A DNA stretch of 62,293 nt, the filler included, from Nemertoderma westbladi (lineage: Eukaryota; Animalia; Xenacoelomorpha): NCBI GenBank assembly GCA_032718475.1. It is 3 parts of 3 records of this genome, joined end to end, with 100 filler letters (N's around TTAATTAATTAA, not from the genome) between each part and the next. Parts side by side here need not be neighbours in the genome. Positions count along the whole stretch, not along the records: positions 20,646 to 50,412 come from JAUCBJ010002091.1; 2 more parts are not named here. One strand, 5' to 3'. This document shows, piece by piece, positions 11,021 to 59,942 of this stretch. The position numbers and the translations under genes are program-made. The notes beneath the pieces are model-generated. The model was not told the origin of the DNA. It did no database searches and was given only the letters and a program-made list of their open reading frames with translations. Positions within the stretch are counted from its first letter, which is position 1. The number at the start of each line of letters is the position of its first letter.

Positions 11021-11026
11021 GTAAAA

Positions 11027-11745: not shown

Positions 11746-11747
11746 GT

Positions 11748-15029: not shown

Positions 15030-15114
15030 AATCAATCAAAGGTGGAGCAAACGTACTGCTAGGAACTACAACCAGTACACCACTTAGGCTAATGGACGAC
15101 TACCGCACTACCGG

Positions 15115-16043: not shown

Positions 16044-17248
16044 CCGGTACTACTAACAGACTAACTACTGAACTAGGCCTACTACTGTTGCCAGGTTGCG
16101 GGAGTACCTACTGGCAGACTAGAGTATAGAGATTATAGGAAAAGTCAAAGGAATTAGAGTGGTATTTTGCCAGAATGCTCTGGAAATGTTGCGGGAGTAG
16201 GCCTATTGCAGTAGGTCTATTGAGATTATTGGGAAAGTATAGGCCTAAAGGAATTAGAGTGGTATTTTGCCAGAATGCAGAATGCTCTGGAAATGTTGAG
16301 GGAGTAGGCCTATTGAGATTATTGGGAAAGTCAAAGGAATTCAGGAATTAGAGTGGTATTTTGCCAGAATAAGAGAATGCTCTGGAAATGTTGCGGGAGT
16401 AGGCCTATTGCTGTATTGAGATTATTGGGAAAGTCAAAGGAATTAGAGTGGTACTTTCCAGAGCATTCCACATTCTGGAAAAATACCACTATAATTCTTG
16501 AATTCTTTTGACTTTCCAAAGGTAAAACGAACTTAGATCATGGAACACTGGAAGGCCTGACTTTGATGAACTTAGATCTTTTCGATAACTTAGGTCCTAT
16601 CCTATCTGGGTGAACTTAGATCCTAACTAGGCCTACACTGAACTAGGTGAACTTAGATCCTAACTAGGTGAACTTCAGAACTTAGATCCCAATTTATGCT
16701 ATAAAAAGCCTTGGTAATCTGTAGGCCTAATCATTATGCTTGTCGCGAAGCGAACTTAGATCCCACGTTGAAAGCAAAGCGAACTTAGATCTTAGGTCAG
16801 TCAGTAGGTGGACTTCCCAATCCAATCATCACAATTCCTTAGCACACGCTAGAGGATAAGATAGTTCTATATCGTTCTATCGATATTATAGTGTATATTG
16901 TACTGTGTTTCATTACTGCATTATAAGCATATAAAACTACTTATAATGATCTAATGCAAACAAGTCATTCTGTCATACACTCAAAGTAGTTGCGATCAGT
17001 GACTCATCAACAAACTATAATTGGCCAATTAATAGCTAATTCATTGCAATATTAGTGGTAGCGGTAGGATCTAAGTTCGCTTCCCTTCAAGCGTGATACT
17101 GTGATAATATTTCAGTATTTACAGAAAGGTCTGCTAGTCTGCTGCCCTATGTGATGGGAATGACATGACATTTCACACATTAACACAGCTACGCGCTAGG
17201 GCTGTCGGGTACAGCAATATATGCAAGGTGGGATCTAAGTTCGTATGT

Positions 17249-20200
17249 TGTACGTGCTTTTGAAGACCTTTAGCAGTTTAACCTGCCAAAATTTACATGT
17301 CTTTTGGTTTATAAATAGACTTTAGAAATTGACAAATATTTAATACCAATAAACACAACATTAGCAGAAGCCAGCCTAGTGCGCGTCCATTCACCCGCTG
17401 GATATACCCGGGAGACTGGATTCTGAGGGCTTAGATTATTATTGCAGTGTAAGCTTACTGTATTATTCGATTGATCGTTAATAAATAATTTCTGACTAAT
17501 ATTATTCACTTTCGGGAAATATTAACAGTTCCTTTAGGACGTGGCGCTCTATCTAGGTAAACAGAGATATGACTTGTACTAAACACAACGGTAAGTCGGT
17601 AAGGCTTATGATTCACGTATGAGGCGCATTCTTTAGGAAATGCTTAGTTATCAGTCACAATCATGCACACTACCGGTAACACACAATACTGCTCACTAAT
17701 TTGCCGACCGTCAATGAATTTTATCATGTATAAAGAGAACAGCAACTGACTCATGTAGTGCTTATCAAATAGCATTAAATTCACTACAAACCACAATAAT
17801 ATAAGTCGCAATCGCTATATGTAACCTGTCTCTCTAACCTGTAGTGTATCAAGAAAATTGGGAAATTTGGGTTCTTTATAAATGTTCTCCAAATAATATT
17901 CAACCAACTGATACAAAATATGACAACAGTAAAAAGCATTAAGACGGTAGGTTAAGATATGATATGACAAGCCGATTGATATGTTATGTGAGTTGTGTTA
18001 TGTTATGATAACAGTTATACGCTCTATAATCTTAAGCCTACTAATGTTTCTTCTAAAGTCTGAAACGAATTGACTCTAGAGCCGGTGTTCCTGGCCTAGA
18101 TAGAAACAACACAACAGTATCAAGAAAAACAGTAAGACTGAACACTCCTAGCATGATCTGCCAAATATCTCCACATCGACAGAAAAAATCGCTCTGATTG
18201 GCTGTTAAGCTAAACAAAGAACCATGTGTCCAATGGCCGTTTCCATGTCAGCAACCAGCTGTTAGATGTCGTAATCTGAATCATCAAGGCTAAGCTGTGC
18301 CAGGGTATTTTACGCATTGCGGGTTTTTTGCCTTACCATGTCCACCAAAGCACACATATCGAAGAATGACTTTTATGTCCGTTAAAACACCTATAACGGT
18401 ACCTTGCGGGCGAGGGGGACTGAGTATATCCGCAAAAGCTTTTACACCGCTCCCAGAAAATGGGATTCAAGTTTATAAATATACAAAAATCACAGTTTCT
18501 AATATATGTAAATACTCTAAACAGTTAGTCTTTCTTGCGCGGACGGCGTTTACGCAGTTTTTTAAAGCTAGCCAGAGTCTTTTTCTCTTTGGGGCGAGCC
18601 ACTTTACAAGGAGGGCTATAACTCCTGGGTGAAGGGTGCAATATGATTGCATCAGAGGGTGTAGGATTATGGTCGGTGTATCCGCCAGTCGAAGTACCGG
18701 GTTGATTGACATCAACGTCGGGGGAGAGGGGTCTAACGGCTTTGAGAGCTCGTTTTAAGACAGCCGCTCTTACGGGTCCTTTACGAGTGGTCTGAACGAG
18801 AGCCGTGGGTGGACCATAGGCAGTTAGAAACCTCCGGGGTTTAATGGTTCTTTCCAACTCGCGTTCGCGGGCTCGGTATTCGTAAGGCCGTCGATATACT
18901 TCCTGTAACTCGGGGTGTGAGTTAACAAATAAGTCTCCATAGTCCGGATCCTGACGGATATAATTGATTAAGTTATAGGAATGAAGGTCGCTAGGATTAA
19001 CACTCCTGAGAAATTTGCGTACGAATTTGGTTGAAATACATTCTCCGACGCGCTTCAGTAGCTCGTAACTCGATATGCGTGATTTCTGTTCGACCGAAGC
19101 GAATAGATAAGGATGGAACGCATAAACTCCTTCGTAAGCGCGTCCGGGATAATAGCGATGGCGCGAATCACAATGTAAATCAGCGTTCGCTTCCCAAGCT
19201 CTGATGTAACGTAGTGTGATCATTTCATCTACGCTTTCCAAATCGCGATTAAAAGGGCAATCGAAACTGGCGTGTCCCTTTAGTTGACAATGGTGACATT
19301 GAGTCATAAATTGAGGGCAAACCGCAAAAATGTGCAAGTTATTGAGTCTGCAATATGCGCAATAAATTTCCATAGTCGGTTGTTCTTGGAAATAGGAACA
19401 GCGGACGTTTGTGTCCATGGGCGTATCATGGTCTCTCGATGCGCATAACCGACAACGTTGCCGAGAAACATAGTTGGCATGGCGATAATCGTACGCAGTG
19501 AGACACTGTGGACCTTGATACCATTCTAGGATGTAATCGTTGTCGCTGTTCCGGGCGCGATAGGCTGAATCTCCTCAGATTCTAGGCATATTGGTTCGTC
19601 TTCCCAGTCTGTTACGAATAGAATTTTCGTGATCTATTCTCGGTTTATCGTTACGACTCCGCTGGGTATGATATTTAAATAGAACCATTTCCCTTTCGGT
19701 GTCTACATCGTCCGTATCATGTAAATCGATAGGATGGCCGGTAGTTAGGAAGTCCATATACGTACCATTACGATGCGTATAGCGAGCGGTGAATTTTCGA
19801 TAGTCCAATTCACGCGTAAGTTGCTCTTGGGACATCGGCGGTTCGATATAACGACCATCGTCCTCCGTAATGGTTGGATCGGCTTCACCGCGTATCAAGC
19901 TATCCACAAATGCTTGTAAAGGTAGAGTATATCGCTCCCTGATACCAAGATCATCTTCTATCAACTCCGTCATATCTGCTATCTGAGTTTATTAATATTG
20001 TAATGAGTTTATGTTTAGGCGAGCGGACGTCGCTGCCTACCTCTCTTTGCCCCCGGACAGTGGGATTCTCAGCGCCGATGTACCGTCGTCGCGGTGTTTA
20101 CGCCAACATGTAGCAACAGCACGACAACGATAACCGGCACAAGTCACTCCACTGTCCGTCCCAAAGGCTTGAATCCACTTTAGGTTCTTTCTATAGGAGA

Positions 20201-20545: not shown

Positions 20546-20645
20546 NNNNNNNNNNNNNNNNNNNNNNNNNNNNNNNNNNNNNNNNNNNNTTAATTAATTA
20601 ANNNNNNNNNNNNNNNNNNNNNNNNNNNNNNNNNNNNNNNNNNNN
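20546..20645. other. Artificial contig linker (N44-TTAATTAATTAA-N44)
   Basis: 100-bp spacer with six-frame stop sequence, identical to the one at 50413-50512. Confidence 0.95.
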
Positions 20646-20895
20646 GTATTCCCTATAGGCCTATTATATATTTATATATATTTGTGCTAAAATTATACCG
20701 GTATTCTGCGATAAACCTAGTCTGTAATAATACTTATATATAATATAAGCATACCGGTATTCTAATATATTATATATATTAAGCTACACTGAGTAGTAGT
20801 ATCGGTAATTAATTACTAGGCTAGCAGTTAATACTGAATTACTAGACTTGTTCAGACTGTAATATAGCAGTGGGCATTCAACTGTACACACAAAT

Positions 20896-22920
20896 ATGTC
20901 TGATACTAAGCAGAACCTGTCAGACAGTTTATTAGACGTAACGATTTGCGACTCAGATAGGGATGTGGAACCGTCTGGTCGTAAGTCCAGTTCACCTCCC
21001 ACTGTGAGGAAGGTCATCCCTCCAGTAATAATAAAAGAACCTAGGCTAGTCCAACATCGTAGGTCTATCATAGGCACTCGAGCTCAGGTCAAGCGGGACC
21101 AGGAAGCAGCGCAACGGCAACAACCCGCGAGTCAAGAACTTATTACTCAGCGGCCCAGCAGCTCCAGTAGTGAGGATACTGTAGAGCTGACACCCGAGCG
21201 CGGAGCAGAGATGACGGATGCGGTTTATAAGGATCCCCTTCTCATCCTTCCTGCAGCAGTGCTCACTAGGTTATTAATCGCGGTGGAAGAACACCAGATC
21301 GATTGGGCGAGAAGTCAACGATCAACTAGAGATAGTTATGCGGGATACACGAGGGAAGAACTGAAGTCTATTGTCGAGTCGCAATGGAACTTCCCCGGAC
21401 CCGGACTCCCGTTTGATTTATCAGAGGCAGCCTGGGAAGACATACACCAGATGGGAGTAGCCAAGGAGACCATAGATCCAGCTGTGTGGAAGAGGTCTGC
21501 AGCCGGATACGTACAGGGATTCTTCAGCTCTATGGAGCGAATAGAAAAACAACTGTTACAACAACCTCAAGGACCTCAAGAGCAGGGACAACTACTTTAT
21601 CAAGTTAGAGAAAGAGTTCTACGTATTAGGCTAATCTTATCAGCCTTTGAGGAGGCTTCTAAACGAAGACAAGACACGTCGTTGCAGGTTGCCGTGAAGA
21701 CTTGGTTTCAGCGGGTGAGTCGCCAGGTTCAAGGAGCAGCTCAGTGGAAAGCTCAGCTGGAAGAGCGCTCAACCCATGGAGAATCAACAGACGCTACTTT
21801 TTCCCAAGTGGAAAGTGAAGCGACAGCAGAGAAACCGCATAAGAGGGATGCCATTGACATCTATCTGTCAGACTATCAGCGTTTTGTGGGAGATGAAGAG
21901 TTGAGGAGAAGGCTAAATGGCCTTAGCCCTAATAGTGAAGGAGCCCAGCGTGTGTTGGATGCAATTGATGTGGATAGGTTAGCGGCGAACCAAGCTAAAT
22001 TCGATGAACAACTGCGCATCGCTAGAGAAAAGGAGGAACAAGTAAGGAAAAAACGTATAGAAGACAGAAAGATAGCAGCCGTGGCAGAGGCAGAAAGAAA
22101 AGCGGCCTTGGCAGAAGCAGTGGCAGAGGCAAAAGCGGCAGCAGCAGAAGCCAAGGCAAAGGCAAAGGCGGCAGCGGCAGAGGCAGCGGCAGAGGCAAAA
22201 GCGGCAGCGGCAGAGGCAAAAGCGGCAGCGCTGGCGGAGGCAGAACGGAGAGCGGCTGAGGAGATCAACCAATTAGAATTGGAGAGCATTCAGGAGAATC
22301 AAGACTGCATAAATAAACAGTTAACAGCTAGTAATATGCAGATGATGAATCGATCTACTCCCAAAAGACAGGGATATACATCATCTGAGGAAGGCGATAC
22401 CACCGATACTGAAGGCAAGGGAAATAGATCTCGTCTAAGTAGACGTAAAAGAACATTCCACCGTCAAAAATTGCCTGATTTGCCTCCAGCTGTTAGAAGG
22501 CAACTAAGTAATAACAACTTAGGTAGTACAGAGCCCACAGACCAAATAATTAAAATAGAAAGACTCCCTACTATAGTAGATGAGCCTGAAATAATTAGGC
22601 CTGTTCTTGAAATCACCCCTTCGGTGATAAACACACCTGTGCTCCCTGAAACTACCTCTAAGTTCCCCCTGCATAGCACTAAGCTATCTATGCCTATTAA
22701 AACAGCCCATGAGACAGTTCATGCTCTGGACCCCGAGCGAAATATTTCTAGTTTATCGCCCGTTGTCCCTCGTCCGCCCGCTACAACGTTGGCGAATCCC
22801 GTTTCGGCGGTTGATTGGGTGGACGAGAGACGGCGGGGGATGGACATTCTCCTCGGAAAGATGGAGGAGAATCAGATTCGCTCCTCCCGACAGGTCCGAG
22901 AGTTAGAAGGGACTAAGTAA
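20896..22920 (+). CDS. BEL/Pao gag N-terminal region (674 aa, Ala/Glu/Lys coiled-coil), cut from the downstream ORF by a TAAG duplication
   Basis: Homologous to 50524-51465; removing one TAAG of TAAGTAAG (22914-22921) fuses it in frame to 22925. Confidence 0.8.
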   Translation: MSDTKQNLSDSLLDVTICDSDRDVEPSGRKSSSPPTVRKVIPPVIIKEPRLVQHRRSIIGTRAQVKRDQEAAQRQQPASQELITQRPSSSSSEDTVELTPERGAEMTDAVYKDPLLILPAAVLTRLLIAVEEHQIDWARSQRSTRDSYAGYTREELKSIVESQWNFPGPGLPFDLSEAAWEDIHQMGVAKETIDPAVWKRSAAGYVQGFFSSMERIEKQLLQQPQGPQEQGQLLYQVRERVLRIRLILSAFEEASKRRQDTSLQVAVKTWFQRVSRQVQGAAQWKAQLEERSTHGESTDATFSQVESEATAEKPHKRDAIDIYLSDYQRFVGDEELRRRLNGLSPNSEGAQRVLDAIDVDRLAANQAKFDEQLRIAREKEEQVRKKRIEDRKIAAVAEAERKAALAEAVAEAKAAAAEAKAKAKAAAAEAAAEAKAAAAEAKAAALAEAERRAAEEINQLELESIQENQDCINKQLTASNMQMMNRSTPKRQGYTSSEEGDTTDTEGKGNRSRLSRRKRTFHRQKLPDLPPAVRRQLSNNNLGSTEPTDQIIKIERLPTIVDEPEIIRPVLEITPSVINTPVLPETTSKFPLHSTKLSMPIKTAHETVHALDPERNISSLSPVVPRPPATTLANPVSAVDWVDERRRGMDILLGKMEENQIRSSRQVRELEGTK

Positions 22921-22924
22921 GGCT

Positions 22925-25900
22925 ATGGAGTTGCAAGAAGTGCAGCAAAGTATCGCGCTAGAACGCGATAAATTAACAAATTTACAAAAGGGTATACCAC
23001 CACCCTCTGTAACAATGTGTCAACCCATTAGGTCTGAAGTATCTCATGCGCAAGGTGTGGAGCCTACACGCATCTATACTGCTAGCGAAGTAGAAACTCC
23101 TATAGTGAACCCTATTAAGGGTAGTTATAGACCTGTTGATAATGATATTCCATATAGAACAGATCATAATCCGAGAAATTTATATACCGATAACTCGATA
23201 TTCAATAATACGATGGCCCAAGAAAGTTTTACGCGTCAAATGGCTAGAACCGAAGCCCGGCAAGCGGTGAAGGTGGGAGAGATCGTCAAGTTCAATGGAG
23301 ATGAGATGAAATGGTTACCTTTTAATGAATATTACAAAGATAACATACAGAACTCTGTACTATCTAATGGAGAGAAACTTAGATTCCTCATCGAGTGCTT
23401 GGAAGGATCTCCCAAGTTAATGGCGTTAAAATTTATTGGACATCCGGATGGATTAAGACAAGTTTGGGATACACTAAACATCAGGTATGGTGATAGGAAT
23501 AACATAGCTGGGTATTTGTATGCAAAGCTGGTAGCGCCCCGAAAGCACGTTCTTAGCAGCGGAATTATCGAGTTTTCCGATGAAATTCAGGAGATCTGCA
23601 GACAATTAGATTGGCTAGGTAAGTCTCATGAGTATCAGAACACTATGGTTATTAGAGCAGTGGCTTCTACTTTACCAAAGGGTGGAGTAGGTACACGCTG
23701 GGATAAGAAAGTGTTATATATGAGGGAACAACAACGACAAGACCCTACCATGGCTGATCTCATGTCATTCCTGGATGGAGAGGTGAAATTGCAACTCCTC
23801 AAGCAATCCAGAGAGAAGACACCGGAAAACAAGGTAAGTGAAAAACCCGTCTCCAGAAGAAAGGTGACACCAGTGTGTTATACCGACGACGGCGAAAGCC
23901 AAGCTTCCCAAGGGGAGGATAGCGGGAAAGACACTGAAAGATCTTATTATGTCAATAAAATACCTAAAGATCAGGTAAGTAAACTTAGGTCTCGAACAAA
24001 TGACAGGAGAGAACAGGTAAGAAAAACTCCTCCTACGTCTCCCAAGAGAATTCCGGTGAGAAAGCCCGAAGAAAGGGCAAGTGTACACAATGTGACTCAA
24101 GGGAAAGTGAGTAACATCAAACTGAAATGTGCGCTATGCGACGGGACCCACCGTTTGAATATGTGTGATGACTTCCTGAAGAAATCGTTGGCGGAGAGAC
24201 GAGAAGTCATGTGGGATAAGCGGTTATGTTATAATTGCCTCAGACAAGGACACCAACGGCGTACCTGTTTCTCTGACATAAAGTGTGCAAAATGTGGTGC
24301 GAAACATCATACCTTGTTGCACTCTGAATTCGAGCGAAATAGTCCGAATCAGGTAAGTGATTCCGAGCTACATGTCCAATTCAGTGATGTGAACGACACT
24401 GATCAGTCTGAAATGGAAGGATTCTACACAGATGAGTTCTCCGACGAAAACGAATCCTGTTACATGATAAATACCGCAGTGTATCGAGCACTCACATACG
24501 AAAAAGATACAGACAGCGACCTCACTCTATCTACTTCTAATCAACAACCTTCTTGGAAGGAGACAACTTCCAATATAGGAATCCGAGAATTTCCTGTAGT
24601 CCAGTTGCGAGTCCATGGACCTAAGCGGAGTTATGTAGTGAACGCCCTCTTAGACTCCGGCAGCACAGGAACGTTCATTGATAGAGAACTAGCCGAAGAT
24701 ATATTCGATGGACAACCCAAGTTCCGAACTAAACTAAACATGTCAGGAATCATGCAAGTTTGGAAATCTACAATAACAGCTGATTATTATGTAGGAGCGT
24801 TGTCTACACCCCAGGACGAGCTAGGAAAACATAGCATCAGGTCAGTGAAAATGGTGGCTATAAAGAACTTCGCTACTACTCAAGCAGACCTTTATAATTG
24901 GGACGAAGATGAGAGTATACAACATCTTAACATACCTCGATTCCCTACAGATTATCCTGGAGTGCAGATACTCATCGGCCAAAACGCGCATGAGGCGCTG
25001 GAGACATTAGAGAAACGGCCTGCTCAACCGCAGCCATTACAGACCTATGCGGTAAGAACTAGAGTAGGTTGGTACTTTACTGGACCTTCCCGTAGAACAC
25101 TTAGAGAAAGACTACCGTCAGAGAACTTCTGCCAGGTAAGTGAATGGGAAGATGATACTAGTGAAGGAGACAATTTAACTGAGGGAACTCCATACTCCTC
25201 AGACAACGACGATATTCACCAGCTTTTCGATGAGGAGAATACCATCGATCTCCTTAAGGAAAACGAGACTTGGCAAAACCAAGTGAACTTATGTCAACTT
25301 CTCTATCCATCTGAACGAGAAGCGTATAACGACGAATTGAATGACGCCATTGAGCGCTGCAATGCCAAGACTCGAGACGAACATGCCGTAAGATTCTTTA
25401 CGCAGGAAGCAGTAGAGCCCAATTCCTACGATAAAGCTTTATCAGTGGAAGAGGAAAGGGCCAAGCAGATCCAAGAGACAACTACACGTTTCCTAAAAGA
25501 TCAAGGTCGGTATGAAGTCGGTCTACCCTTCCGTAAGAGAGAACCGAAGTTCATCAATAACAGACCTTTGGCGGAAAAAAGAATCGTGCAACTCCATCGA
25601 CGCCTTACGGCTAATTCTTCAGCTAAAGCGATGTATCAAACCCAGCTGGAGAAATTTATTCATAAGGGATACGCGGAGAGAGTACCGGAAGAAACACCTG
25701 TTACAGAAAGAACGTATTACTTAACTCACCATTACGTTCCTAAACCCGGTAAACCAAACGAAGTAAGAGTAGTGTTTGATGGCTCCGCTCTTTACATGGG
25801 ACAATCCCTTAACTCTGAATTGTTACCCGGACCCAACTTACTTCAATCCTTGTTGGGAATTCTTCTACGATTGAGACAATATTCGATTGCTTTCGCCTCC

Positions 25901-28900
25901 GATATAGAAGGCATGTTCTTGCAAGTTAAAGTGTTGGAGAAGGATCGAGATAGCCTACGATTTCTGTGGTGGCCCGAAGGAGATCTCAACCAAAAACCGG
26001 TGGAGTATTGGATGACCATCCAGGCCTTTGGGATAATCTCAAGCCCTTCCAACGCCTGTTCTGTAGTGCGTACCACTGCAGAAGACAATCGAGATGCCTT
26101 CTCGAAGGAAGTGATCGACAACATCAAGAGGGATATCTACATGGACGACAATTTGAAGTCCCTTCCATCAGTTGAGGAAGCCATTGAAGTTGCTAAGGGT
26201 ACGGTAGAGTGCTTAAAAAGAGGTGGGTTTAGATTAACGAAATTCACCAGCAACTCCCGTGAGTTTCTGGAGTCAATCCCTGCGGAAGAGCGAGGAGCGA
26301 AAGATCTCGATTTGATCAAAGATGATCTGCCAGAAACCAAGACACTCGGCTTGAAATGGGACACAGAGAGGGATATCCTGTTTTTTCAGCTAAAACAACG
26401 AGATAATCCAGTTCGAACCAAGCGGATTTGTTTAAGTATACTGAGCACTTATTTCGACCCATTGGGATTTATTAGCCCAGTTATATTGATTGCTCGTAGT
26501 TTGGTACAACAAATGTGGCTTGAAAACCACTCATGGGACGATCCACTTAAGGGAGAATTATTGAAGAAGTGGATGAAATGGGAAGATTCTCTGCCATCTA
26601 TCGAGGATTTTATAATTTCCCGTTCATATTTTGGACACGTTCTCCCTACGTATTCCTATCAACTCCATGTGTTTGGAGACGCCAGCGATATGGGAATAGG
26701 TATAGTAGCCTACCTAAGAGTGGAAACTCCAGATGGAATCAAGGTAGCCTTGGTTACTTCTAAGGCCTTAATCAACAACAAGTTGAAAGTTCCTCGAGCG
26801 GAGTTAAAGGCGGCTCTATACGCTACAGCCATCGGCCGGAATGTAACAGAACAGATTGACTATCCATTAGAGAAAACTGTCTATTGGACCGACGCTTTGC
26901 TCGTGTTAGAGTATATAACCAATGAAGTCTGTCAGTTCAGCGTCTTCGTTACCAACAGAGTAGCCATCATACTTAGTCGCACGACGATGGACCAATGGAG
27001 ACATTGTCCCGGAACGCTTAATCCGGCAGACATCGCTTCCAGGGGAGCGACTCCAAGGGAACTAGTAAATACTCCCGAATGGTTAGGAGGACCTGACTTT
27101 CTCTACCGAGAAGAAGAAGAATGGCCACCCCATCTCACAACAGCAGAGATCAGACAGGCCAAGGGAGCGGAGAAGGTTAAACCCAAAACTCGAGCGAGTA
27201 AATCGAAGTTGTTTAAACCTGCGGTTGATCTATCTGTATTATTTACTTCCGGAGAAGATGCCTTGGATCAGAAATCCACAGCCACAGATAAAGAAGTCTT
27301 GGAAATCCGTGATAAGGATTGGAAATCTGGAATACCAGATACCTCACAGGGACTCTCACCTCTCTTGCAGAGAGCGATACGTCACTACAGTTCCTGGAAT
27401 CGGCTTTGTAAAGCTGTCACCTATTTGAAACGATGTTTTCATCATCGTTACTCCGGAACAAAGACCGATGGTGATGATATTCCACCAACATCTGCAAGAG
27501 TCCATGTTGTTAAAGATCTCCCCAAGTACAAGATATCCGACAGGTTTCTAAAGGAGAAGATCAGCTACAAGGAGCATGATGAAACCAACAAACAGATGCT
27601 AAGGCTTCTACAATGCTATGAGGATTCCGATAAGTATTTCCTGTTGTTAAGAAATCCGCAGATGCGCTTAAAGGATCGCTTCTCTAGCACCATGATAGAT
27701 GGGTTGATACGTGTTGGAGGTAGGCTCACTAACGCCCCATTATCCTTTGACACTAAGTTTCCCATACTTATTAGAAATCTTGATATACAAATCAAGATGA
27801 TTGTAGATGTTCATAGCAGACTGTACCATGCGGGTAGAGAACGAGTTCTGAGCGAAATTCGAACTCGCTACTATTTTTATAAACCCCGTAGAGCTCTGAA
27901 CCAAGTTCTTAGGAACTGCATACCCTGTAGGAAAGCATTCAGTAGGCCTTTAACACAGCGAGAGGCAGAATTACCTAGGGAACGAGTAAGCTTTTATGAA
28001 CCACCCTTTACTAATACTGGTGTGGATTTATTTGGCCCTATTGAAGTATATCGTGCTAGGACTATAGTCAAGAGATGGTGCGTCATCTTCGTGTGCATGA
28101 CTTGTCGAGCCATCCATCTTGATATGGTGAACGATCTATCCACTAACAGCTTCGTCTTAAGTTTACGACGACAGATCGCTCGCTTCGGAACTAGTAATAC
28201 CATGCGATCGGACAAGGGAACGAACTTCATTGGCGCCAATAACGAAATCCAGGCTTACGTGAAGGACTGGAACCAAAGACAGGTGGACGATCAGCTAAGA
28301 ATAACCGCGTCTAGCTGGACCTTCAACGCCGCCGACGCCCCTTGGTGGGGAGGAAGTTGGGAGAGATTGATTCGGAGTGTTAAGACAGCATTTCACTTTA
28401 TAGTGCCGTGCCGTGCGTATCTCACCGACGAACTTTTGCGGACGTTAATGGAGGAAATCGCTGCCTATCTCAACGAGAGACCGCTTATGCCCGTCTCATC
28501 GAGTCCCGATTCCCTGGAAGCGCTAACACCCGCGCACTTCTTACTTAAGAAACCTGTAGCCATGCTTCCCCAATCAGAGATTGTCGACGGAGATGAATAT
28601 TGCCGCCGAACTTGGCAACTTATGCAATTGCTATCTCGTCGTTTCGCTGATCACTTTGAAAAGCATTATCTGCCCACACTACAACTTCGAACTAAGTGGT
28701 TTGCGCAGCAAGAAAATGTCAGCGCCGGAGATATGGTGCTTATTGTGGATCCCGACCTCCCACGTAAGCGGTGGCAGACAGGACGCATCATAGAGACTCA
28801 CATTTCAAGTGACGGTTTAGTACGATCAGTAGAACTCGTAGTTATGCGGCGCAACTTCAAAAAACCGGGAATAATATTTGAGACGCAACAACTCAATCGC

Positions 28901-29044
28901 CCAGTTGGTCGTTTATGTTTATTAGAAAGAGACAGAGAACTTTCCGGAAACTATGGAAGGCAAGACACTCTTCCCACGACCACCTCCCTAATTCCTCAAA
29001 CATCTAGGGACTCCCACCTTAATGCGTCTGGAGTGGGCGTATGA
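22925..29044 (+). CDS. BEL/Pao Gag-Pol polyprotein (capsid-like region, 3 zinc knuckles, aspartic protease, RT, RNase H, integrase)
   Basis: KFNGDEMKW; CALCDGTH, CYNCLRQGH and CAKCGAKHH knuckles; LLDSGS; RVVFDGS, DIEGMFLQV, YMDD; LHVFGDAS, PRAEL, NPADIASRG; HSRLYHAG..CIPC, GVDLFGP, SDKGTNF, GGSWERLIRSVK. Confidence 0.96.
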   Translation: MELQEVQQSIALERDKLTNLQKGIPPPSVTMCQPIRSEVSHAQGVEPTRIYTASEVETPIVNPIKGSYRPVDNDIPYRTDHNPRNLYTDNSIFNNTMAQESFTRQMARTEARQAVKVGEIVKFNGDEMKWLPFNEYYKDNIQNSVLSNGEKLRFLIECLEGSPKLMALKFIGHPDGLRQVWDTLNIRYGDRNNIAGYLYAKLVAPRKHVLSSGIIEFSDEIQEICRQLDWLGKSHEYQNTMVIRAVASTLPKGGVGTRWDKKVLYMREQQRQDPTMADLMSFLDGEVKLQLLKQSREKTPENKVSEKPVSRRKVTPVCYTDDGESQASQGEDSGKDTERSYYVNKIPKDQVSKLRSRTNDRREQVRKTPPTSPKRIPVRKPEERASVHNVTQGKVSNIKLKCALCDGTHRLNMCDDFLKKSLAERREVMWDKRLCYNCLRQGHQRRTCFSDIKCAKCGAKHHTLLHSEFERNSPNQVSDSELHVQFSDVNDTDQSEMEGFYTDEFSDENESCYMINTAVYRALTYEKDTDSDLTLSTSNQQPSWKETTSNIGIREFPVVQLRVHGPKRSYVVNALLDSGSTGTFIDRELAEDIFDGQPKFRTKLNMSGIMQVWKSTITADYYVGALSTPQDELGKHSIRSVKMVAIKNFATTQADLYNWDEDESIQHLNIPRFPTDYPGVQILIGQNAHEALETLEKRPAQPQPLQTYAVRTRVGWYFTGPSRRTLRERLPSENFCQVSEWEDDTSEGDNLTEGTPYSSDNDDIHQLFDEENTIDLLKENETWQNQVNLCQLLYPSEREAYNDELNDAIERCNAKTRDEHAVRFFTQEAVEPNSYDKALSVEEERAKQIQETTTRFLKDQGRYEVGLPFRKREPKFINNRPLAEKRIVQLHRRLTANSSAKAMYQTQLEKFIHKGYAERVPEETPVTERTYYLTHHYVPKPGKPNEVRVVFDGSALYMGQSLNSELLPGPNLLQSLLGILLRLRQYSIAFASDIEGMFLQVKVLEKDRDSLRFLWWPEGDLNQKPVEYWMTIQAFGIISSPSNACSVVRTTAEDNRDAFSKEVIDNIKRDIYMDDNLKSLPSVEEAIEVAKGTVECLKRGGFRLTKFTSNSREFLESIPAEERGAKDLDLIKDDLPETKTLGLKWDTERDILFFQLKQRDNPVRTKRICLSILSTYFDPLGFISPVILIARSLVQQMWLENHSWDDPLKGELLKKWMKWEDSLPSIEDFIISRSYFGHVLPTYSYQLHVFGDASDMGIGIVAYLRVETPDGIKVALVTSKALINNKLKVPRAELKAALYATAIGRNVTEQIDYPLEKTVYWTDALLVLEYITNEVCQFSVFVTNRVAIILSRTTMDQWRHCPGTLNPADIASRGATPRELVNTPEWLGGPDFLYREEEEWPPHLTTAEIRQAKGAEKVKPKTRASKSKLFKPAVDLSVLFTSGEDALDQKSTATDKEVLEIRDKDWKSGIPDTSQGLSPLLQRAIRHYSSWNRLCKAVTYLKRCFHHRYSGTKTDGDDIPPTSARVHVVKDLPKYKISDRFLKEKISYKEHDETNKQMLRLLQCYEDSDKYFLLLRNPQMRLKDRFSSTMIDGLIRVGGRLTNAPLSFDTKFPILIRNLDIQIKMIVDVHSRLYHAGRERVLSEIRTRYYFYKPRRALNQVLRNCIPCRKAFSRPLTQREAELPRERVSFYEPPFTNTGVDLFGPIEVYRARTIVKRWCVIFVCMTCRAIHLDMVNDLSTNSFVLSLRRQIARFGTSNTMRSDKGTNFIGANNEIQAYVKDWNQRQVDDQLRITASSWTFNAADAPWWGGSWERLIRSVKTAFHFIVPCRAYLTDELLRTLMEEIAAYLNERPLMPVSSSPDSLEALTPAHFLLKKPVAMLPQSEIVDGDEYCRRTWQLMQLLSRRFADHFEKHYLPTLQLRTKWFAQQENVSAGDMVLIVDPDLPRKRWQTGRIIETHISSDGLVRSVELVVMRRNFKKPGIIFETQQLNRPVGRLCLLERDRELSGNYGRQDTLPTTTSLIPQTSRDSHLNASGVGV

Positions 29045-30657
29045 CTATAATATTTTCTCTGTTTTATTTATTTTACATATAAATATTATTATTTACTTTA
29101 TTATAATCGTTTTTATTTAATTTTAGTTAAGTAGAGTGTTATTTTGGATTATTTAGTAGACTAGTGCAATATATTAGTGTTTATTACGTAATTACCTAAT
29201 ATACTTAGTGCGACGGCGAGAAACAATTATTTTCTCTTTCCTTACTGTCCGTATTATATTATAAATGCGAGACTATAGTAAGATGATATGTCCGTACTTA
29301 TTAAAGTACAATAAAGCCACTACTATATTAAAGTATTATTGGTAGGCAGAGTATTAGGAATGCAAAGTTCAGATCCTCGTGTCTCGGCTAAACCAAGCTC
29401 TGGGTAGACCTTGGAAACGACTTGCCTCTTCACACTGACATTGCCTCGTGCGATATTGCTCTTCTACCGTATATTAAATAATACAATATAGTAGCGTGTT
29501 GTCCCTTTAACAGTGGCGTATAACGCAAAATAAATCTGTTAAACCCTTTGACCATCTGTAATTCTAGTCTATTAAGATATCGCGGCACCCACCGATATAC
29601 TTGAAAGACAAATTATAGAATCAGTGGTTAACGTCCCCAGACAAGTTCTGGAATAAATCGGTGCCCATCTCAAATATTAATTATTTAATATTTGCAAATC
29701 AAATAAGTCAAAATCTGTAAAACTCAGATCCTTCAATAATTCTAGTCATTTAAGATATCGTAGCATTTACCGGTATTCTTAAAAGGACAAATTTTACAGA
29801 ATTAAGGATCTTGTGTCCCTAGACATGTTCTAGAATCAAAATATGTCCATTTAATTATCAAATAATAAAATTTCAGGGAATAAATTTAAATTCATGCCTT
29901 TAATGAATTTAATAAATTGCCTTTTTACGCAATTTATAACATTCCCAAAATTCCATTAATTAATAGATCAAGGGAGCGGAGATTATATTATTATTCGTAT
30001 GAGTGTGCGAAAATCTCCCAAACATAGTCAATAGCCGATAAAATTCATAAAGTCATGTATGGAAGGAACATTGACTATTAAAGAATTACTATTAAATAAC
30101 ATCCCAGATCTGTATGCATTGGAATTACTCTAATTCTACCGCTAGCTTTGCATAATGTCACCATAGCAACAACCACGCTAGAATTGGAATTGAGTTAAAA
30201 GAACAATCGAAAGCTTGTCCCATTGAATAGCATAGAGAATAAACAGTGCACTGCTAGTATCCCAGGATACATGATAATAACGTGACATTCTGGAAGGCAC
30301 TGACTAACGGACAAGTGAATCGAGTGTGTGTAAGTTGTGACAAGTTGTGTGTGGTATTTATGAGTTTATAGGCGAATGTTACTACTAAGGTGTGTTTACA
30401 GTAGCTAGTCGCAATCGTGAAAGTAACCTAACTCTCCAAGGAAAACCTGAAGTATATCTAAGCTTTTGGGGACGGACAGTGGAGTGACTTGTGCCGGTTA
30501 TCGTTGCCGTGCTGTTGCCACAACGTTGGCGTAAACACGCGACAACGGTGCATCGGTGCTGAGGATCCCACTGTCCGGGGGCAGAGAGGGGTAGGCAGCG
30601 ACGCCCGCTCGCCTAAAGCCAAAATCCTTCTAATATTGATAAACTCATATAACAGAT

Positions 30658-31989
30658 ATGACGGAGTTGATAGAAGATGATCTTGGTATTAGAGAGGGAT
30701 ATACTTTACCTTTACAAGCAGTTGTGGATATCTTGATACGCGGTGAAGCCGATCCAACCATTACGGAGGACGATGGTCGTTATATCAAACCGCCGATGTC
30801 CCAAGAGCAACATACGCGTGAATTGGACTATCGAAAATTCACCGCTCGCTATACGAATCGTAATGGTACGTATATGGACTTCCTAACTACCGGCCATCCT
30901 ATCGATTTACACAATACGGACTGTGTCGACTATATATCCTGCCCAGCGGAGTCGGAACCATAAACTGAAATTCGAATGCGAAAATTCTATTCGAAATCGA
31001 CTCGAAAGAAAAGGCACTAAAGAAACAAATGGACGCGGTAACTCCAACGTATATTTGGAATTCTTTATAGAAGCATTGTAACAACAAATAAATATCATCC
31101 GCGTTTACCCTACCCGACGTGCGTCTTTGGTATTACTGTGACGAATGCCCTAGACCTAACCAGCAAATCGAAAGATATAAACATCCACGGAAACGTTGTG
31201 TTAAACACAGTTGTGCTCGTTATACTTATGGGAGTTTCGAACGAAACCCTTTCGACGTATCACCTACGGTCGCGCGTCTTAAGCGATCATTAAATAAACC
31301 CATGATCAGAGTTCCGGAATACTCGGTCAGACCTCCTCATTCCCAAGTAATACCTCAAACTCTCGATCCTAATAGTATTACGGATCCTCGCGGATTGTAT
31401 TCACTGCTCAAAGATCTAGTGCTGCCCTAACAATTAATCGATAACACTCCGACAGTGATTTCTGGCTAGTCGCCCATCTTACCTAGCCGGATTGTGACGC
31501 GGACACCTAATATCACTATCCAACCGTATGGTCGTCCCCGTTTAACGCGACACAACCCTTCATCAAGGTGAAGGAGAGCGTTGTACGAAACGAGTTAAAC
31601 GCTATTCTATAAAGATCAAAAAGGAAACCTGCGTTTGTTCAGATACACGTAAGATATAACAGTAAGTCCAATCGATAAACGAATTGGTCTTATCTCAGTT
31701 CGATTGGGAAATCTCGAATCTCTAAGAAGATATCGAGCTTAGAAAACCCTATTCTCTGCGAGAGTTTCGGACGAACGTATCCCATGATAAGCAGAGGAAA
31801 ATCAGATCGAGGAGAAGCATATCGAAATGGACGAGACACCGACCGTAAACCCAAACCTTCTAATGCAATTGTATTGCACCCTTCAACCGGAGTTATAGCA
31901 CTCCTCGTAAAGTGGCTCGCCCCAAAGAGAAAAGGACTCTGGCTAACCTTAAAAAACTGCGTAAACGCCGTCCGCGCAAGAAAAGCTAA
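30658..31989 (+). pseudogene. Degraded accessory ORF of the plus-strand BEL element
   Basis: N-terminal ~88 codons (MTELIEDDLG...GHPIDLH) and C-terminal ~45 codons (PSNAIVLHPS...KKLRKRRPRKKS*) match 18525-19973; the middle has stops and frameshifts. Confidence 0.75.
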
Positions 31990-32067
31990 CTGTTTAGAGT
32001 ATCTTTATATTTTAGAAACTGTGATTTGTTATATTTTATAGACTTAAATCCCATTTTCTGGGAGCGG

Positions 32068-33327
32068 TGTAAAAGCTTTTGCGTCATTAACCGGTTATTT
32101 TCCCTTAAAGTACTCTGTAGTTGGTTTGCCAGGCATAAAAGGGCCGTGTCCTTGCTGTACTGGTGTTTTAGAGGACATAAAAGTCATTTCTTATGTATTT
32201 GAACTGTATTTGTACTTTAGAGGACATAATCTGCAATATCATGACGTCAAAATCTAGATACTCTGGAGAACAGTGTCGCTACCATGACGACGGCTAGCTG
32301 CTGATATTGCCACGTTGCAACTTTATGTATCGGCCAATAGAATTGGATAAAATTTGGGTGTGTGTGGATTTCGACCAATCACACGCTGCTGAACTGAAAA
32401 ACCCTATCTTTATGCTCATTCTTTTGGTTGAACGGGTTTCTTTGTGAAATAGGTATAACTGTTGTTTCTGGGATCATTATGCAATCACGTATTTTCTTTT
32501 CGGTCCTAAAACCAGGAAAGAACGGCCTTATAGTGTTTTGTGCATTTTTCTGTTTTTAGCAGTACACTAGTAGGCTTAATTATAAGGGCATATATCCTTT
32601 AACGGACCCGGACTCGGATCACCAATTCAATGCAATTTGACTCGTACCCGTGTTATTTTATACTGCTATTTACTGTCAGTTCTTCATAATATTGCTGATG
32701 AATTATTATATTGGAATAACGAGAAACAACCCCGAAACCCAATATTCTTGATATACCGAAGGTAAGAGAGAAAGGTTACATATAAGCGATTGTGACTTAT
32801 GTTAAAGTGGTTTGAAGTGAATCTAATGTTATTTGGTAGACCCTACCTGAGTCAGTCTGTGTTCCTTTTATATGTAACTAAAATCAGTAAAGATCGGCAG
32901 ATTAGTGTGCAGTATTGTGCAGCATTGCGTATGAGTGAGTCTGTTAAAGAAGCATTTCCTAAAGAATGCGCCATATATGTGAATTATAATTGAGCCATAT
33001 CGTTGTGAGTAGTTTAAGTCATAGCTCTGTTTATATAGATAGAGCGCCACGTCCTAAAGGAACTGTTAATATTCCCCGAAGGTGAATAATATTGTCAGAG
33101 ATTATATAATACTGTCAGTCGAATAATACATTAGGCTTACATAGCAATAAGATTAAGCCGTCGAATCCAATCTCCCGGGTATAACCATCGGGTGAATGAT
33201 CGCGCACGGATTGGTTTCGACTAGTGTACTAAATCAAATAATTGTCATACGGCTAAAAGGTGATTTAATATCTGGAAGACATTATAAATTGGCAGGTTAA
33301 ACTGTCAAAGGTCTAAAAGCGCGAACA
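32068..33327 (+). mobile_element. 3' LTR (1260 bp) with TATA-like TTTATATA at ~33030
   Basis: Starts TGTAAAAGCTTTTG and ends AAAAGCGCGAACA, the same termini as the other LTRs; followed by flank CATTG. Confidence 0.88.
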
Positions 33328-33568
33328 CATTGCACTGATGGTGTCTGAAAGTCTCTCAAAAATCTCAACTTTTGCTCATATTGATACCTACAAATTTTCA
33401 ACTTGGCAGCTTTAAATCCGACAAAGTTATTAGCATGTCAAAATCGTAACGACGACGACGACAACGACGACGACAACGACGACGACGACAACTATTTGCA
33501 TAAATTGACCCACCCCCTAACAGTGTCAATTCGCTAAGGCTCCGCCAACTTCGTGGCTCGCCCCACAA
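33328..33568 (-). mobile_element. Half of a MITE with an (ACG)n tract, interrupted by the BEL insertion
   Basis: Reverse complement of 48446-48701. Confidence 0.8.
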
Positions 33569-33802
33569 CATTGATAGGAACACTTAGAATTATGACCATA
33601 TCGAAGTCGACATTTGATAGTAATTGAGACACATTACACCGACATAGAACGTGTGGGACCAAATGGAAGATGCGGATTACTTTAAATTTATGGATAATAT
33701 GGGTAAATGGGACTGGTTCAAACTTTACTGCCAGGTGGGAGTAAGTTTGTTATTTATCAGTTTCTAAACGAAAATTATATAAAATATTACAACCAAAAAT
33801 AG

Positions 33803-34051
33803 TTACCGTCGGAGATTTATCAGATACGGTTCCGGTTGAACGTCGTGGCAGCTGTAACTGTTGACTTCTATTCGAGGAACCCAGGGTTGCTCCCAAACTT
33901 TAGCCTCGCATTCCATTACTTTACCGTCAGTAACTAGGTTACATTTATCCACACTGACCCCGTAACCGTCATTCACACAATCGGTAACTCCTACAGAGAA
34001 TCTAATCCTGTAGAAAATACCAGCGACAACCTGAGACTGAACGTCGTGGAT
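33803..34051 (-). CDS. Type-2 cystatin, terminal exon (not in the ORF track)
   Basis: TTTAG acceptor, then IHDVQSQVVAGIFYRIRFSVGVTDCVNDGYGVSVDKCNLVTDGKVMECEAKVWEQPWVPRIEVNSYSCHDVQPEPYLINLRR*: QxVxG and PW motifs and four Cys. Confidence 0.9.
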   Translation of the reverse strand: MHDVQSQVVAGIFYRIRFSVGVTDCVNDGYGVSVDKCNLVTDGKVMECEAKVWEQPWVPRIEVNSYSCHDVQPEPYLINLRR

Positions 34052-37000: not shown

Positions 37001-39292
37001 ATCCAGTCCAATATACTAACCTCAATGAGTTTGTTTCTGTAGATCGATCCAGTCCAATATACTAACCTCAATGAGTTTGTTTCTGTAGATCTATCCAGTC
37101 CAATATACTAACCTCAATGAGTTTGTTTCTGTATATCGATCCAGTCCAATATACTAACCTCAATGAGTTTGTTTCTGTAGATCTATCCAGTCCAATATAC
37201 TAACCTCAATGAGTTTGTTTCTGTATATCGATCCAGTCCAATATACTAACCTCAATGAGTTTGTTTCTGTAGATCTATCCAGTCCAATATACTAACCTCA
37301 ATGAGTTTGTTTCTGTAGATCTATCCAGTCCAATATACTAACCTCAATGAGTTTGTTTCTGTAGATCTATCCAGTCCAATATACTAACCTCAATGAGTTT
37401 GTTTCTGTAGATCGATCCAGTCCAATATACTAACCTCAATGAGTTTGTTTCTGTAGATCTATCCAGTCCAATATACTAACCTCAATGAGTTTGTTTCTGT
37501 AGATCGATCCAGTCCAATATACTAACCTCAATGAGTTTGTTTCTGTATATCGATCTAGTCCAATATACTAACCTCAATGAGTTTGTTTCTGTAGATCTAT
37601 CCAGTCCAATATACTAACCTCAATGAGTTTGTTTCTGTAGATCGATCCAGTCCAATATACTAACCTCAATGAGTTTGTTTCTGTAGATCTATCCAGTCCA
37701 ATATACTAACCTCAATGAGTTTGTTTCTGTATATCGATCCAGTCCAATATACTAACCTCAATGAGTTTGTTTCTGTATATCGATCCAGTCCAATATACTA
37801 ACCTCAATGAGTTTGTTTCTGTATATCGATCCAGTCCAATATACTAACCTCAATGAGTTTGTTTCTGTATATCGATCCAGTCCAATATACTAACCTCAAT
37901 GAGTTTGTTTCTGTAGATCTATCCAGTCCAATATACTAACCTCAATGAGTTTGTTTCTGTATATCGATCCAGTCCAATATACTAACCTCAATGAGTTTGT
38001 TTCTGTAGATCTATCCAGTCCAATATACTAACCTCAATGAGTTTGTTTCTGTATATCGATCCAGTCCAATATACTAACCTCAATGAGTTTGTTTCTGTAG
38101 ATCGATCCAGTCCAATATACTAACCTTAATGAGTTTGTTTCTGTAGATCTATCCAGTCCAATATACTAACCTCAATGAGTTTGTTTCTGTAGATCGATCC
38201 AGTCCAATATACTGACCTCAATGAGTTTGTTTCTGTAGATCGATCCAGTCCAATATACTAACCTCAATGAGTTTGTTTCTGTAGATCGATCCAGTCCAAT
38301 ATACTAACCTCAATGAGTTTGTTTCTGTATATCGATCCAGTCCAATATACTAACCTCAATGAGTTTGTTTCTGTATATCGATCCAGTCCAATATACTAAC
38401 CTCAATGAGTTTGTTTCTGTATATCGATCCAGTCCAATATACTAACCTCAATGAGTTTGTTTCTGTAGATCGATCCAGTCCAATATACTAACCTCAATGA
38501 GTTTGTTTCTGTAGATCTATCCAGTCCAATATACTAACCTCAATGAGTTTGTTTCTGTAGATCGATCCAGTCCAATATACTAACCTCAATGAGTTTGTTT
38601 CTGTAGATCTATCCAGTCCAATATACTAACCTCAATGAGTTTGTTTCTGTAGATCGATCCAGTCCAATATACTAACCTCAATGAGTTTGTTTCTGTAGAT
38701 TGATCCAGTCCAATATACTAACCTCAATGAGTTTGTTTCTGTAGATCTATCCAGTCCAATATACTAACCTCAATGAGTTTGTTTCTGTATATCGATCCAG
38801 TCCAATATACTAACCTCAATGAGTTTGTTTCTGTAGATCGATCCAGTCCAATATACTAACCTCAATGAGTTTGTTTCTGTAGATCTATCCAGTCCAATAT
38901 ACTAACCTCAATGAGTTTGTTTCTGTAGATCGATCCAGTCCAATATACTAACCTCAATGAGTTTGTTTCTGTAGATTGATCCAGTCCAATATACTAACCT
39001 CAATGAGTTTGTTTCTGTAGATCTATCCAGTCCAATATACTAACCTCAATGAGTTTGTTTCTGTATATCGATCCAGTCCAATATACTAACCTCAAAGAGT
39101 TTGTTTCTGTAGATCGATCCAGTCCAATATACTAACCTCAATGAGTTTGTTTCTGTAGATCTATCCAGTCCAATATACTAACCTCAATGAGTTTGTTTCT
39201 GTAGATCTATCCAGTCCAATATACTAACCTCAATGAGTTTGTTTCTGTAGATCGATCCAGTCCAATATACTAACCTCAATGAGTTTGTTTCT

Positions 39293-48417: not shown

Positions 48418-48445
48418 CTGCCAATAATAGGTTTTTATTCCAAAA

Positions 48446-59936: not shown

Positions 59937-59942
59937 CAATTT

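What the first reader, a model, noticed from the sequence alone, without database searches (positions are those of the whole stretch)
30920..31850. Accessory gene has constant ends and a swapped or hypervariable ~1-kb middle
Seen: the two copies are closely similar for the upstream region and first ~88 codons (to ...GHPIDLH.TD) and for the last ~45 codons plus PPT. The ~0.9-kb middle here does not align by eye with the ~1.0-kb middle at ~18680-19700 and has different Cys motifs (CDEC...CVKHSC). Inference: a modular cassette exchanged between subfamilies by RT template switching, as expected of a host-conflict effector.
Basis: partly seen in the sequence, partly recalled or inferred. Interest (0 to 1): 0.72.

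Follow-up and report, generated by a model that had tools for sequence, protein, structure and literature searches.

The report
Retrotransposon gene with two interchangeable middles
A jumping-gene family in an animal genome carries an extra gene with no known relatives, whose two versions have nearly identical ends around unrelated middles; both middles occur in many copies and were likely shuffled onto the shared ends by recombination, but nothing yet shows that the gene fights the host.

Summary
Observation confirmed, breakpoints corrected. Two Bel/Pao-type copies (A 30658-31989 +, B 19973-18525 -) share a third ORF between pol and the 3' LTR. They are 96% identical over 88 codons, about 78% for 80 more bases, unalignable over 31011-31820 (810 nt) versus 19597-18695 (903 nt) at DNA, protein and frameshift-aware level, then 89% to the PPT. 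Both middles occur as many diverged contigs in 4 of 4 runs laid, so neither is a one-off insertion or an assembly chimera. Silent sites in the ends are about tenfold closer (dS 0.04-0.09) than pol or gag between other subfamilies (0.69, 0.97), which favours recent recombination over protein constraint; B's own pol is lost in a gap. Listed variants are mostly synonymous, so the middle looks dimorphic, not hypervariable. B is nearly open and has CCHC knuckles, a basic tail, no membrane segment and no homolog. A is heavily broken beside an intact gag-pol, so the gene looks dispensable in cis. Host conflict is unsupported. A 9-nt repeat around A's middle keeps an old-insertion rival alive.

The parts
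20863..22920 (+). Element A ORF1 (gag N-terminal part), open; the 5' LTR is lost in the N gap 20546-20645
   Evidence: 75% nt match to a second gag at 51689-50527
22907..29044 (+). Element A gag-pol, 2045 codons, fully open: DUF1759, three Cys/His fingers, protease, RT (YMDD), Peptidase_A17, integrase H2C2, DUF5641
30085..30657 (+). Upstream region shared by A and B (81-93% per 100 nt), no codon-position bias in six frames; a CAG lies 2 nt before the ATG in both copies (possible splice acceptor, untested)
30658..30921 (+). Constant 5' part of the accessory ORF, 88 codons, 95.8% to B, dS 0.07, dN 0.035
30931..31010 (+). Transition zone, about 78% to B, after a 23-nt gap in A that shifts the frame
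31011..31820 (+). A-type middle, 810 nt, no similarity to the B middle; broken in this copy; open 110-codon stretch 31098-31427 with CDEC...CVKHSC
   Evidence: covered by diverged contigs in 4 of 4 runs
31027..31035 (+). 9-nt direct repeat, first copy (second at 31825-31833); possible old target-site duplication or microhomology
   Evidence: P about 0.008 for two 50-nt windows; found after looking
31821..32068 (+). Constant 3' part: last ~52 codons with basic tail KKLRKRRPRKK, stop at 31987-31989, and polypurine tract ~32060-32067; 88.7% to B
32068..33327 (+). 3' LTR of A (TG...CA, ~1.26 kb); 5' half unalignable to the LTRs of B and C, 3' half 71-73%
18525..19973 (-). Accessory ORF of copy B, 482 codons with one in-frame stop at codon 133; acidic N-terminus, basic C-terminus, no hydrophobic segment
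18695..19597 (-). B-type middle, 903 nt, with three Cys/His clusters (codons 174, 205, 226; the last is a canonical CX2CX4HX4C knuckle)
   Evidence: zf-CCHC_3 E 0.002, below the curated cut-off; gap-free contigs 15-18% diverged
17246..18446 (-). 3' LTR of B

Best explanation
This is a third, non-envelope gene of an animal Bel/Pao-type retrotransposon family that exists in two forms with unrelated middles, which were likely put on shared ends by recombination between subfamilies. Shown: the layout pol - 1.6-kb spacer - ORF - PPT - LTR in copy A; unalignable middles; both middles multicopy; ends alike even at silent sites. Inferred: the two middles are old alternative domains, each kept under purifying selection in its own subfamily. 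When RNAs of two subfamilies are packaged together, reverse transcriptase would switch template in the homologous flanks, moving a middle onto new ends and making the ends nearly identical; ectopic gene conversion would leave the same trace. Inferred function: the B form is likely an intracellular, nucleic-acid-binding helper (zinc knuckles, basic nuclear-localisation-like tail, no signal or membrane segment) that acts in trans and is not needed by every copy, since A keeps an intact gag-pol beside a broken gene.
For: Middles at chance by four tests. A-B ends: 4 synonymous differences in 58 sites (5') and 3 in 36 (3') against 235 in 520 for pol A-D (Fisher p 1.5e-9 and 5.5e-6) and 118 in 217 for gag A-C. 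LTR 3' halves of A, B and C are about equidistant (0.73, 0.71, 0.74), so A and B should be about as far apart as A and C. The 5' end is not frozen: other contigs match it at only 82-84% (records 6 and 14; record 7), the 4 listed variants there on the B lay are synonymous, and no stable RNA fold was found in either constant end (z between -0.9 and +1.1). Both middles are covered in 4 of 4 runs from 4 studies and 2 organism labels; listed contigs bridge both A junctions (records 22, 32, 23); B-middle contigs differ by 14-18% with no gaps (records 12, 20, 26, 28, 29). Of the 40 variant rows shown for B (of 545), 12 lie in the ORF and 10 are synonymous (p 0.0007). Template switching between co-packaged RNAs is established for LTR retrotransposons (PMC6894440, passages) and replaces the env receptor-binding region in MuLV (PMC10536682, passages).
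Against: Only two full copies could be compared; no segment trees and no third middle type. B's pol is missing, so A-B background divergence is inferred from LTRs and from other copies. The left border is graded (96%, 78%, none), not sharp. The A-B pattern needs several switches (upstream 86%, 5' end 96%, middle none, 3' end 89%, U3 none, R/U5 73%). Variant rows are a best-supported subset (40 of 545 and 40 of 799). Coding evidence for the A middle is weak (6 of 9 synonymous, p about 0.05; stop count only 38 vs 46 expected, 64 of 1000 shuffles as low). The 9-nt repeat around the A middle fits an insertion. No listed contig bridges B's junctions by a clear 31 letters. Function rests on motifs only: the knuckle hit is below Pfam's cut-off and both folds failed (pLDDT 33 and 35).
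Confidence: 0.52

Rival explanations
1. No exchange. A and B descend from one ancestral gene; the middle diverged beyond recognition, while the ends are held at the nucleotide level by RNA or DNA signals (splicing, packaging, PPT context).
For: Graded left border. Sequence next to the PPT and the upstream non-coding region are also conserved. Faint co-linear resemblances (W-Y-x4-C...R-x-R-C near the start; a score-38 stretch near the end). U3 is also unalignable among all three LTRs, so fast turnover exists in this family.
Against: The resemblances are not significant (143 of 500, 94 of 500, 347 of 500 shuffles). Within each type variation is mostly synonymous and gap-free, which is hard to square with loss of all protein similarity while pol is 91% identical at protein level between subfamilies. 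Other contigs differ by 16-18% in the 5' end, and no folded structure was found there.
Confidence: 0.24
2. The A middle is an old captured or nested insert, with a 9-nt target duplication or microhomology, that entered a copy which had lost its original middle and was then amplified as a passenger. Only B represents the real gene.
For: 9-nt direct repeat at 31027 and 31825, the only two occurrences in the window, P about 0.008. The A middle needs at least 7 breaks, like random DNA, while 8.2 kb of gag-pol is open. Internally deleted derivatives exist in the runs (table 5).
Against: No terminal inverted repeat. It needs a deletion and an insertion at the same place, of similar length (810 vs 903 nt). 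The first repeat lies 16 nt inside the unalignable part, and the repeat was found after looking. Composition of the two middles is alike (CpG o/e 1.49 and 1.40 vs 0.90 in pol). Codon-usage score is positive on the sense strand (20.6, like 20.3 for B's coding frame), and 6 of 9 listed variants are synonymous in the open frame.
Confidence: 0.17
3. One reading: the middle is a host-conflict effector domain diversified by an arms race and swapped to escape host defence.
For: Modular layout; two dissimilar Cys-rich middles; position where accessory genes are captured; no homolog anywhere.
Against: No sign of positive selection: listed variants are synonymous-biased. Only two types seen. One lineage tolerates loss of the gene: a contig 97.5% identical to A shares the 23-nt gap (record 22). 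No interaction, expression or structure evidence.
Confidence: 0.15
4. Assembly artefact: one copy is a chimera of two repeats joined by the assembler.
For: The scaffold has N gaps and the family is very high-copy.
Against: Independent contigs bridge both A junctions (records 22, 32, 23). B reads as one frame across both of its junctions, with a single stop.
Confidence: 0.02

Closest known systems
Belpaoviridae (Bel/Pao LTR retrotransposons) with a third gene (ICTV profile PMC8742986, whole text; PMC3118150, passages)
   Same: Domain set and order of gag-pol, PPT, LTR; a third gene between pol and the 3' LTR in sense orientation.
   Different: The described third gene is env-like. This one has no hydrophobic segment and has zinc knuckles. 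The element exceeds the stated 4.2-10 kb (over 12.4 kb without its 5' LTR), and its LTR is about 1.26 kb.
Shared ORF3 pool of bdelloid rotifer retroelements (PMC5408684; part 1 of 5 and passages)
   Same: Non-env ORF3 types exchanged between lineages, with RT template switching proposed.
   Different: There whole ORFs with enzyme homologs (DEDDy exonuclease, GDSL esterase) move between clades. Here only the middle of one ORF differs, inside shared coding ends, and it has no homolog.
Polytropic MuLV / FeLV env recombinants and recKoRV (PMC10536682, passages)
   Same: An internal segment is replaced between shared flanks by copy choice; in recKoRV an unrelated segment replaces coding sequence and the recombinant spreads.
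   Different: Those are envelope genes with homologous receptor-binding regions, or a degrading insert, in vertebrate retroviruses. Here the gene is not env and the middles are not detectably homologous.
[quoted passage not shown]
   Same: Long pol-to-LTR region with ORFs of unknown origin, no homologs outside the elements, and a proposed nucleic-acid-binding regulatory role.
   Different: Plant Ty3/gypsy, often antisense; the parts read describe no constant ends with alternative middles.

Membership tests
Belpaoviridae (Bel/Pao) | Gag-Pol with Pao-type domains in the order gag, protease, RT, RNase H, integrase | tested here: met
   DUF1759, Asp_protease_2 (weak), Peptidase_A17 E 8e-36, Integrase_H2C2, DUF5641 E 1e-19. 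RT seen as a YMDD motif; Pfam RVT_1 did not hit this ORF.
Belpaoviridae (Bel/Pao) | Three Cys/His fingers in Gag (feature recalled, not from a call) | tested here: met
   Three motifs at residues 408, 441, 460 of the long ORF
Belpaoviridae (Bel/Pao) | Polypurine tract of about 10 nt before the 3' LTR | tested here: met
   Purine run before TGTAAAAG in A and B
Belpaoviridae (Bel/Pao) | Two LTRs and a tRNA-Arg/Gly primer-binding site | tested here: inconclusive
   The 5' ends of A and B fall in an N gap; the LTR upstream of gag C shows no obvious PBS by eye
Belpaoviridae (Bel/Pao) | Copy B itself has gag-pol | not testable with these tools
   B is cut at 20545; membership is inferred from the shared upstream region, PPT and LTR 3' half
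env-like third ORF | Signal peptide and transmembrane anchor | tested here: not met
   Maximum 19-residue hydropathy 0.83 in the B protein
env-like third ORF | Homology to a viral fusogen | tested here: not met
   No hit in Pfam, PHROGs, PDB sequences or 1.84 billion representatives; the folds were unusable, so a structural test is lacking
CCHC zinc-knuckle nucleic-acid-binding proteins | CX2CX4HX4C motif scoring above the family cut-off | tested here: inconclusive
   Canonical spacing at codon 226 and two variants; zf-CCHC_3 18.3 bits vs cut-off 27; similarity to the element's own Gag fingers is weak (E 0.06; 29 of 2000 shuffles)
Recombinant cassette (copy-choice mosaic) | Non-homologous or far more distant core between closely similar flanks | tested here: met
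Recombinant cassette (copy-choice mosaic) | Conflicting trees between segments across many copies | not testable with these tools
   No genome held; no related loci in any collection; contig sequences are not returned by the read tool
Host-conflict effector | Positive selection or many alternative alleles in the variable part | tested here: inconclusive
   Listed variants are synonymous-biased, but they are a small subset; two types seen
Host-conflict effector | Action on a host defence pathway | not testable with these tools
   Needs an experiment
Nested DNA transposon (for the A middle) | Terminal inverted repeats | tested here: not met
   Best score 11
Nested DNA transposon (for the A middle) | Target-site duplication | tested here: inconclusive
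   9-nt direct repeat near both borders, P about 0.008, found after looking

The most novel reading that the evidence does not exclude
An animal retrotransposon family runs a chassis-and-payload accessory gene: a fixed 88-residue N-terminal module and a fixed basic tail serve both as recombination arms and as protein scaffold, and a pool of unrelated payload domains is swapped between them to counter host silencing, much like polymorphic effector cassettes in bacteria.
Probability: 0.15. Interest if true: 0.78.

Novelty: new variant of a known kind. Interest (0 to 1): 0.42.

Why it matters
Third genes of Bel/Pao elements are described as env-like and rare. A non-env, homolog-free, zinc-knuckle gene that exists in two internally swapped forms would add a new kind of accessory gene to this group and give a clean, testable case of domain exchange inside one reading frame. 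If many payloads exist and act on silencing, it would be an animal counterpart of transposon-encoded counter-defence. On present evidence it is an interesting mosaic of unknown effect in an under-studied animal.

Tried and rejected
No genome held. Related-locus scans found nothing: accessory 5' end in metagenome, viral and genome contigs; pol in viral and metagenome contigs. Protein searches found nothing: B C-terminal 349 aa, lengths 191-611 only; whole B read with X at the stop against 1.84 billion representatives; A middle part, lengths 80-256 only; PDB sequences (one E 0.14 chance hit); PHROGs. Longer or shorter forms were not searched, and the second half of the A middle was scanned only against Pfam. 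The Atlas gave no result. Two single-sequence folds failed (pLDDT 33, 35), so no fold search was run. Rfam on 17000-34000 gave one weak hit elsewhere. No RNA holder listed; nothing is claimed on expression. Summed contig depth was not used to rank parts or count copies. Rejected: a W-Y-x4-C...R-x-R-C register match between the middles (not significant); an upstream ORF in 30085-30657 (no codon-position bias); origin of either middle elsewhere in the window; a loose end at 30921 as evidence of switching, since any copy without A's 23-nt gap would give it. Nine paper searches listed no report of a Bel/Pao third gene with constant ends and alternative middles; the library lacks most subscription journals, I saw most hits only as listings, and no supplements were read (Repbase/GyDB-type entries could hold such elements). 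PMC13524379 was seen as passages only. Earlier scan notes: none by sequence or words; 8 same-genome notes on other features.

Full report
Setting. The window is a repeat-rich animal scaffold: a host TRAPPC12-like gene is about equally far (46-52%) from fish, echinoderm and mollusc proteins. Element A runs on the plus strand: ORF1 20863-22920 and a 2045-codon ORF 22907-29044 with DUF1759, Peptidase_A17, Integrase_H2C2 and DUF5641, which mark Bel/Pao elements. After 1.6 kb comes the accessory region 30658-31989, a polypurine tract and a 1.26-kb LTR ending at 33327. Copy B lies on the minus strand, 19973-18525, with its own PPT and LTR; an N gap at 20546-20645 removes everything upstream of it and the 5' LTR of A. 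Two more fragments, C (LTR and gag start) and D (pol, 59942-62293), give divergence yardsticks.

Observation. blastn finds 30085-31009 (85.7%) and 31833-32083 (89.3%) and nothing between. In 30-nt windows identity is 25-30 of 30 up to 30927, then 24, 23, 20 on a diagonal shifted by 23 nt, then 11, 7, 7 from 31020; on the right it jumps from 3-6 of 20 to 15-16 of 20 at 31830. The true unalignable parts are 31011-31820 and 19597-18695. They score at chance by local protein alignment in three frames (143 of 500 shuffles), DNA alignment (201 of 300) and a frameshift-aware global alignment (32-44 of 60 in six settings; control 994 vs -53).

Are the middles one-off? No. Contigs of 4 of the 8 listed runs were laid (4 studies, 2 organism labels). 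All 30 bins of A have depth in all four runs, and 29-30 of 30 bins of B. Listed pieces bridge A's left border (30895-31135, 6 differences, no gap; 30726-31097, 53 differences, 22 gap letters) and right border (31149-31884, 87 differences, 4 gap letters). B-middle pieces of 350-535 nt differ by 14-18% without gaps. One of these runs may be the source of the window; depth was not used as copy number. The first piece shares A's 23-nt gap, so a frameshifted form is itself multicopy; the second appears to lack it.

Is it a gene? B is one frame of 482 codons with a single in-frame stop at codon 133; its middle has 26 sense-strand stops over three frames against 43.6 expected (0 of 1000 shuffles as low) and a codon-usage score of 20.3 in frame. 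Of 40 variant rows shown (of 545), 12 are in the ORF and 10 are synonymous, including 4 of 4 in the middle. A is broken: at least 7 breaks in the middle, as in random DNA, yet the sense strand scores as coding (20.6) and 6 of 9 listed variants in the open stretch 31098-31427 are synonymous (p about 0.05; 18 of the 40 shown rows, of 799, lie in the accessory region). All 8 listed pol variants are synonymous. With 8.2 kb of gag-pol fully open, the decay of A's accessory gene most likely happened while the lineage was still copying itself (inference), so the gene is dispensable in cis.

What the protein looks like. B has an acidic N-terminus (net -12 over 91 residues), three Cys/His clusters of which the last is a canonical CX2CX4HX4C knuckle, and a basic tail (net +11 over 55) ending KKLRKRRPRKKD; maximum hydropathy is 0.83, so it is not env-like. 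Pfam gives only zf-CCHC_3 below cut-off. No homolog was found among 1.84 billion representatives, in length-limited word searches, PDB or PHROGs. Folds failed. That zinc knuckles bind single-stranded nucleic acid and that such a tail can act as a nuclear signal is recalled knowledge; the function is therefore inferred from motifs only.

Why are the ends constant? Not because of protein constraint alone. Silent sites are as conserved as replacement sites: dS 0.07, dN 0.035 at the 5' end; dS 0.04-0.09, dN 0.13-0.14 at the 3' end; against dS 0.69 for pol A-D and 0.97 for gag A-C (Fisher p 1.5e-9 and 5.5e-6). The LTR 3' halves of A, B and C are about equidistant, which suggests A and B are as old a split as A and C; this is an inference, since B's pol is missing. 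Either the ends were exchanged recently or they are held by nucleotide-level signals. Against the second: other contigs match the 5' end at only 82-84%, family variants there are synonymous, and no stable fold was found in the ends. For the second: the left border is graded, and conservation beside a PPT is unsurprising. Copy-choice recombination between co-packaged RNAs is documented for Ty1 and ONSEN, though rare between distant elements (PMC6894440, passages), and replaces an internal env region in MuLV (PMC10536682, passages). I put exchange at about 0.5 and cis constraint at about 0.25. Template switching and ectopic conversion cannot be told apart here.

A complication. A 9-nt direct repeat lies at 31027 and 31825, near both borders of A's middle, and nowhere else in the window (P about 0.008, found after looking). 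There is no terminal inverted repeat. It may mark an old capture or insertion into a deleted copy that was then amplified (about 0.17). B's best repeat is 6 nt, which is chance (P 0.36).

Host conflict. Nothing tested supports it. The variation seen is purifying within each type, only two types are visible, and one lineage carries the gene broken. The reading is not excluded (about 0.15), because the variant rows are a small subset and a genome-wide count of middle types could not be made. The confidences of this reading and of the best explanation overlap, since both involve exchange.

Comparison. ICTV describes one to three genes, the third env-like, and 4.2-10 kb genomes (PMC8742986, whole text); few Bel/Pao elements have env (PMC3118150, passages). 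Non-env third ORFs shared between lineages are known from bdelloid rotifers (PMC5408684), and homolog-free ORFs between pol and LTR from plants (PMC7264820; PMC11963269). Nine searches listed no Bel/Pao case of constant ends with alternative middles, within the limits of that library and without supplements. Earlier notes of this scan do not cover the feature.

Verdict. Real feature; a new variant of a known kind (captured third ORF, shuffled by recombination). Interest 0.42; 0.78 if a larger payload pool with a counter-defence role is shown.

Noticed in passing
window 33328-48701: A 15-kb unit bounded by 256-nt inverted repeats (94%) starts exactly at the end of A's 3' LTR. It holds a 46-nt satellite (34382-48314, about 300 units) interrupted by two near-identical RT ORFs (39283-40722, 41714-43021; RVT_1).
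   Followed up: partly
window 8740-13305 and 13308-18773: Tandem duplication (100% and 98.6%) that copies the 5' part of an intronless TRAPPC12-like ORF together with B's LTR and the last ~80 codons of B's accessory gene, creating a 577-codon truncated host ORF joined to the element.
   Followed up: partly
window 7609-10467 (-): Intronless TRAPPC12-like ORF of 952 codons with an internal 13-residue repeat; its C-terminal part is 46-52% identical to fish, echinoderm and mollusc proteins alike (120 of 649 hits listed), so the host is an animal without close relatives in the collection.
   Followed up: partly
window 32068-32700, 18446-17850, 54820-54220: The 5' halves of three LTRs of this family are mutually near chance identity (0.47-0.54 vs 0.48 shuffled) while the 3' halves are 71-74%: a second variable module.
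   Followed up: partly
window 20863-29044: Gag is split into a 685-codon ORF and an overlapping 2045-codon ORF that carries the capsid-like and finger parts; the 14-nt overlap at 22907-22920 may be a frameshift site. ORF1 had no Pfam hit.
   Followed up: no
window 30685-30895: A 209-nt internal deletion in the constant 5' part occurs in contigs of 3 of 4 runs, so deleted derivatives are propagated.
   Followed up: no
window 30658-31989 and 19973-18525: The accessory ORFs are CpG-rich (o/e 1.3-1.56 in most parts) compared with gag (0.75) and pol (0.90); unexplained.
   Followed up: no
window 49211-49816, 56661-57311, 59481-59960: Cathepsin-F-like, FIC-domain-like and hAT-like fragments (labels recalled from the translations, not from a scan). 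The ORF listing printed them as minus strand, but they translate from the plus strand.
   Followed up: no
window 20590-20601 and 50457-50468: Both assembly gaps consist of 44 N, 12 letters and 44 N, a scaffolding spacer; sequences on either side need not be adjacent.
   Followed up: no
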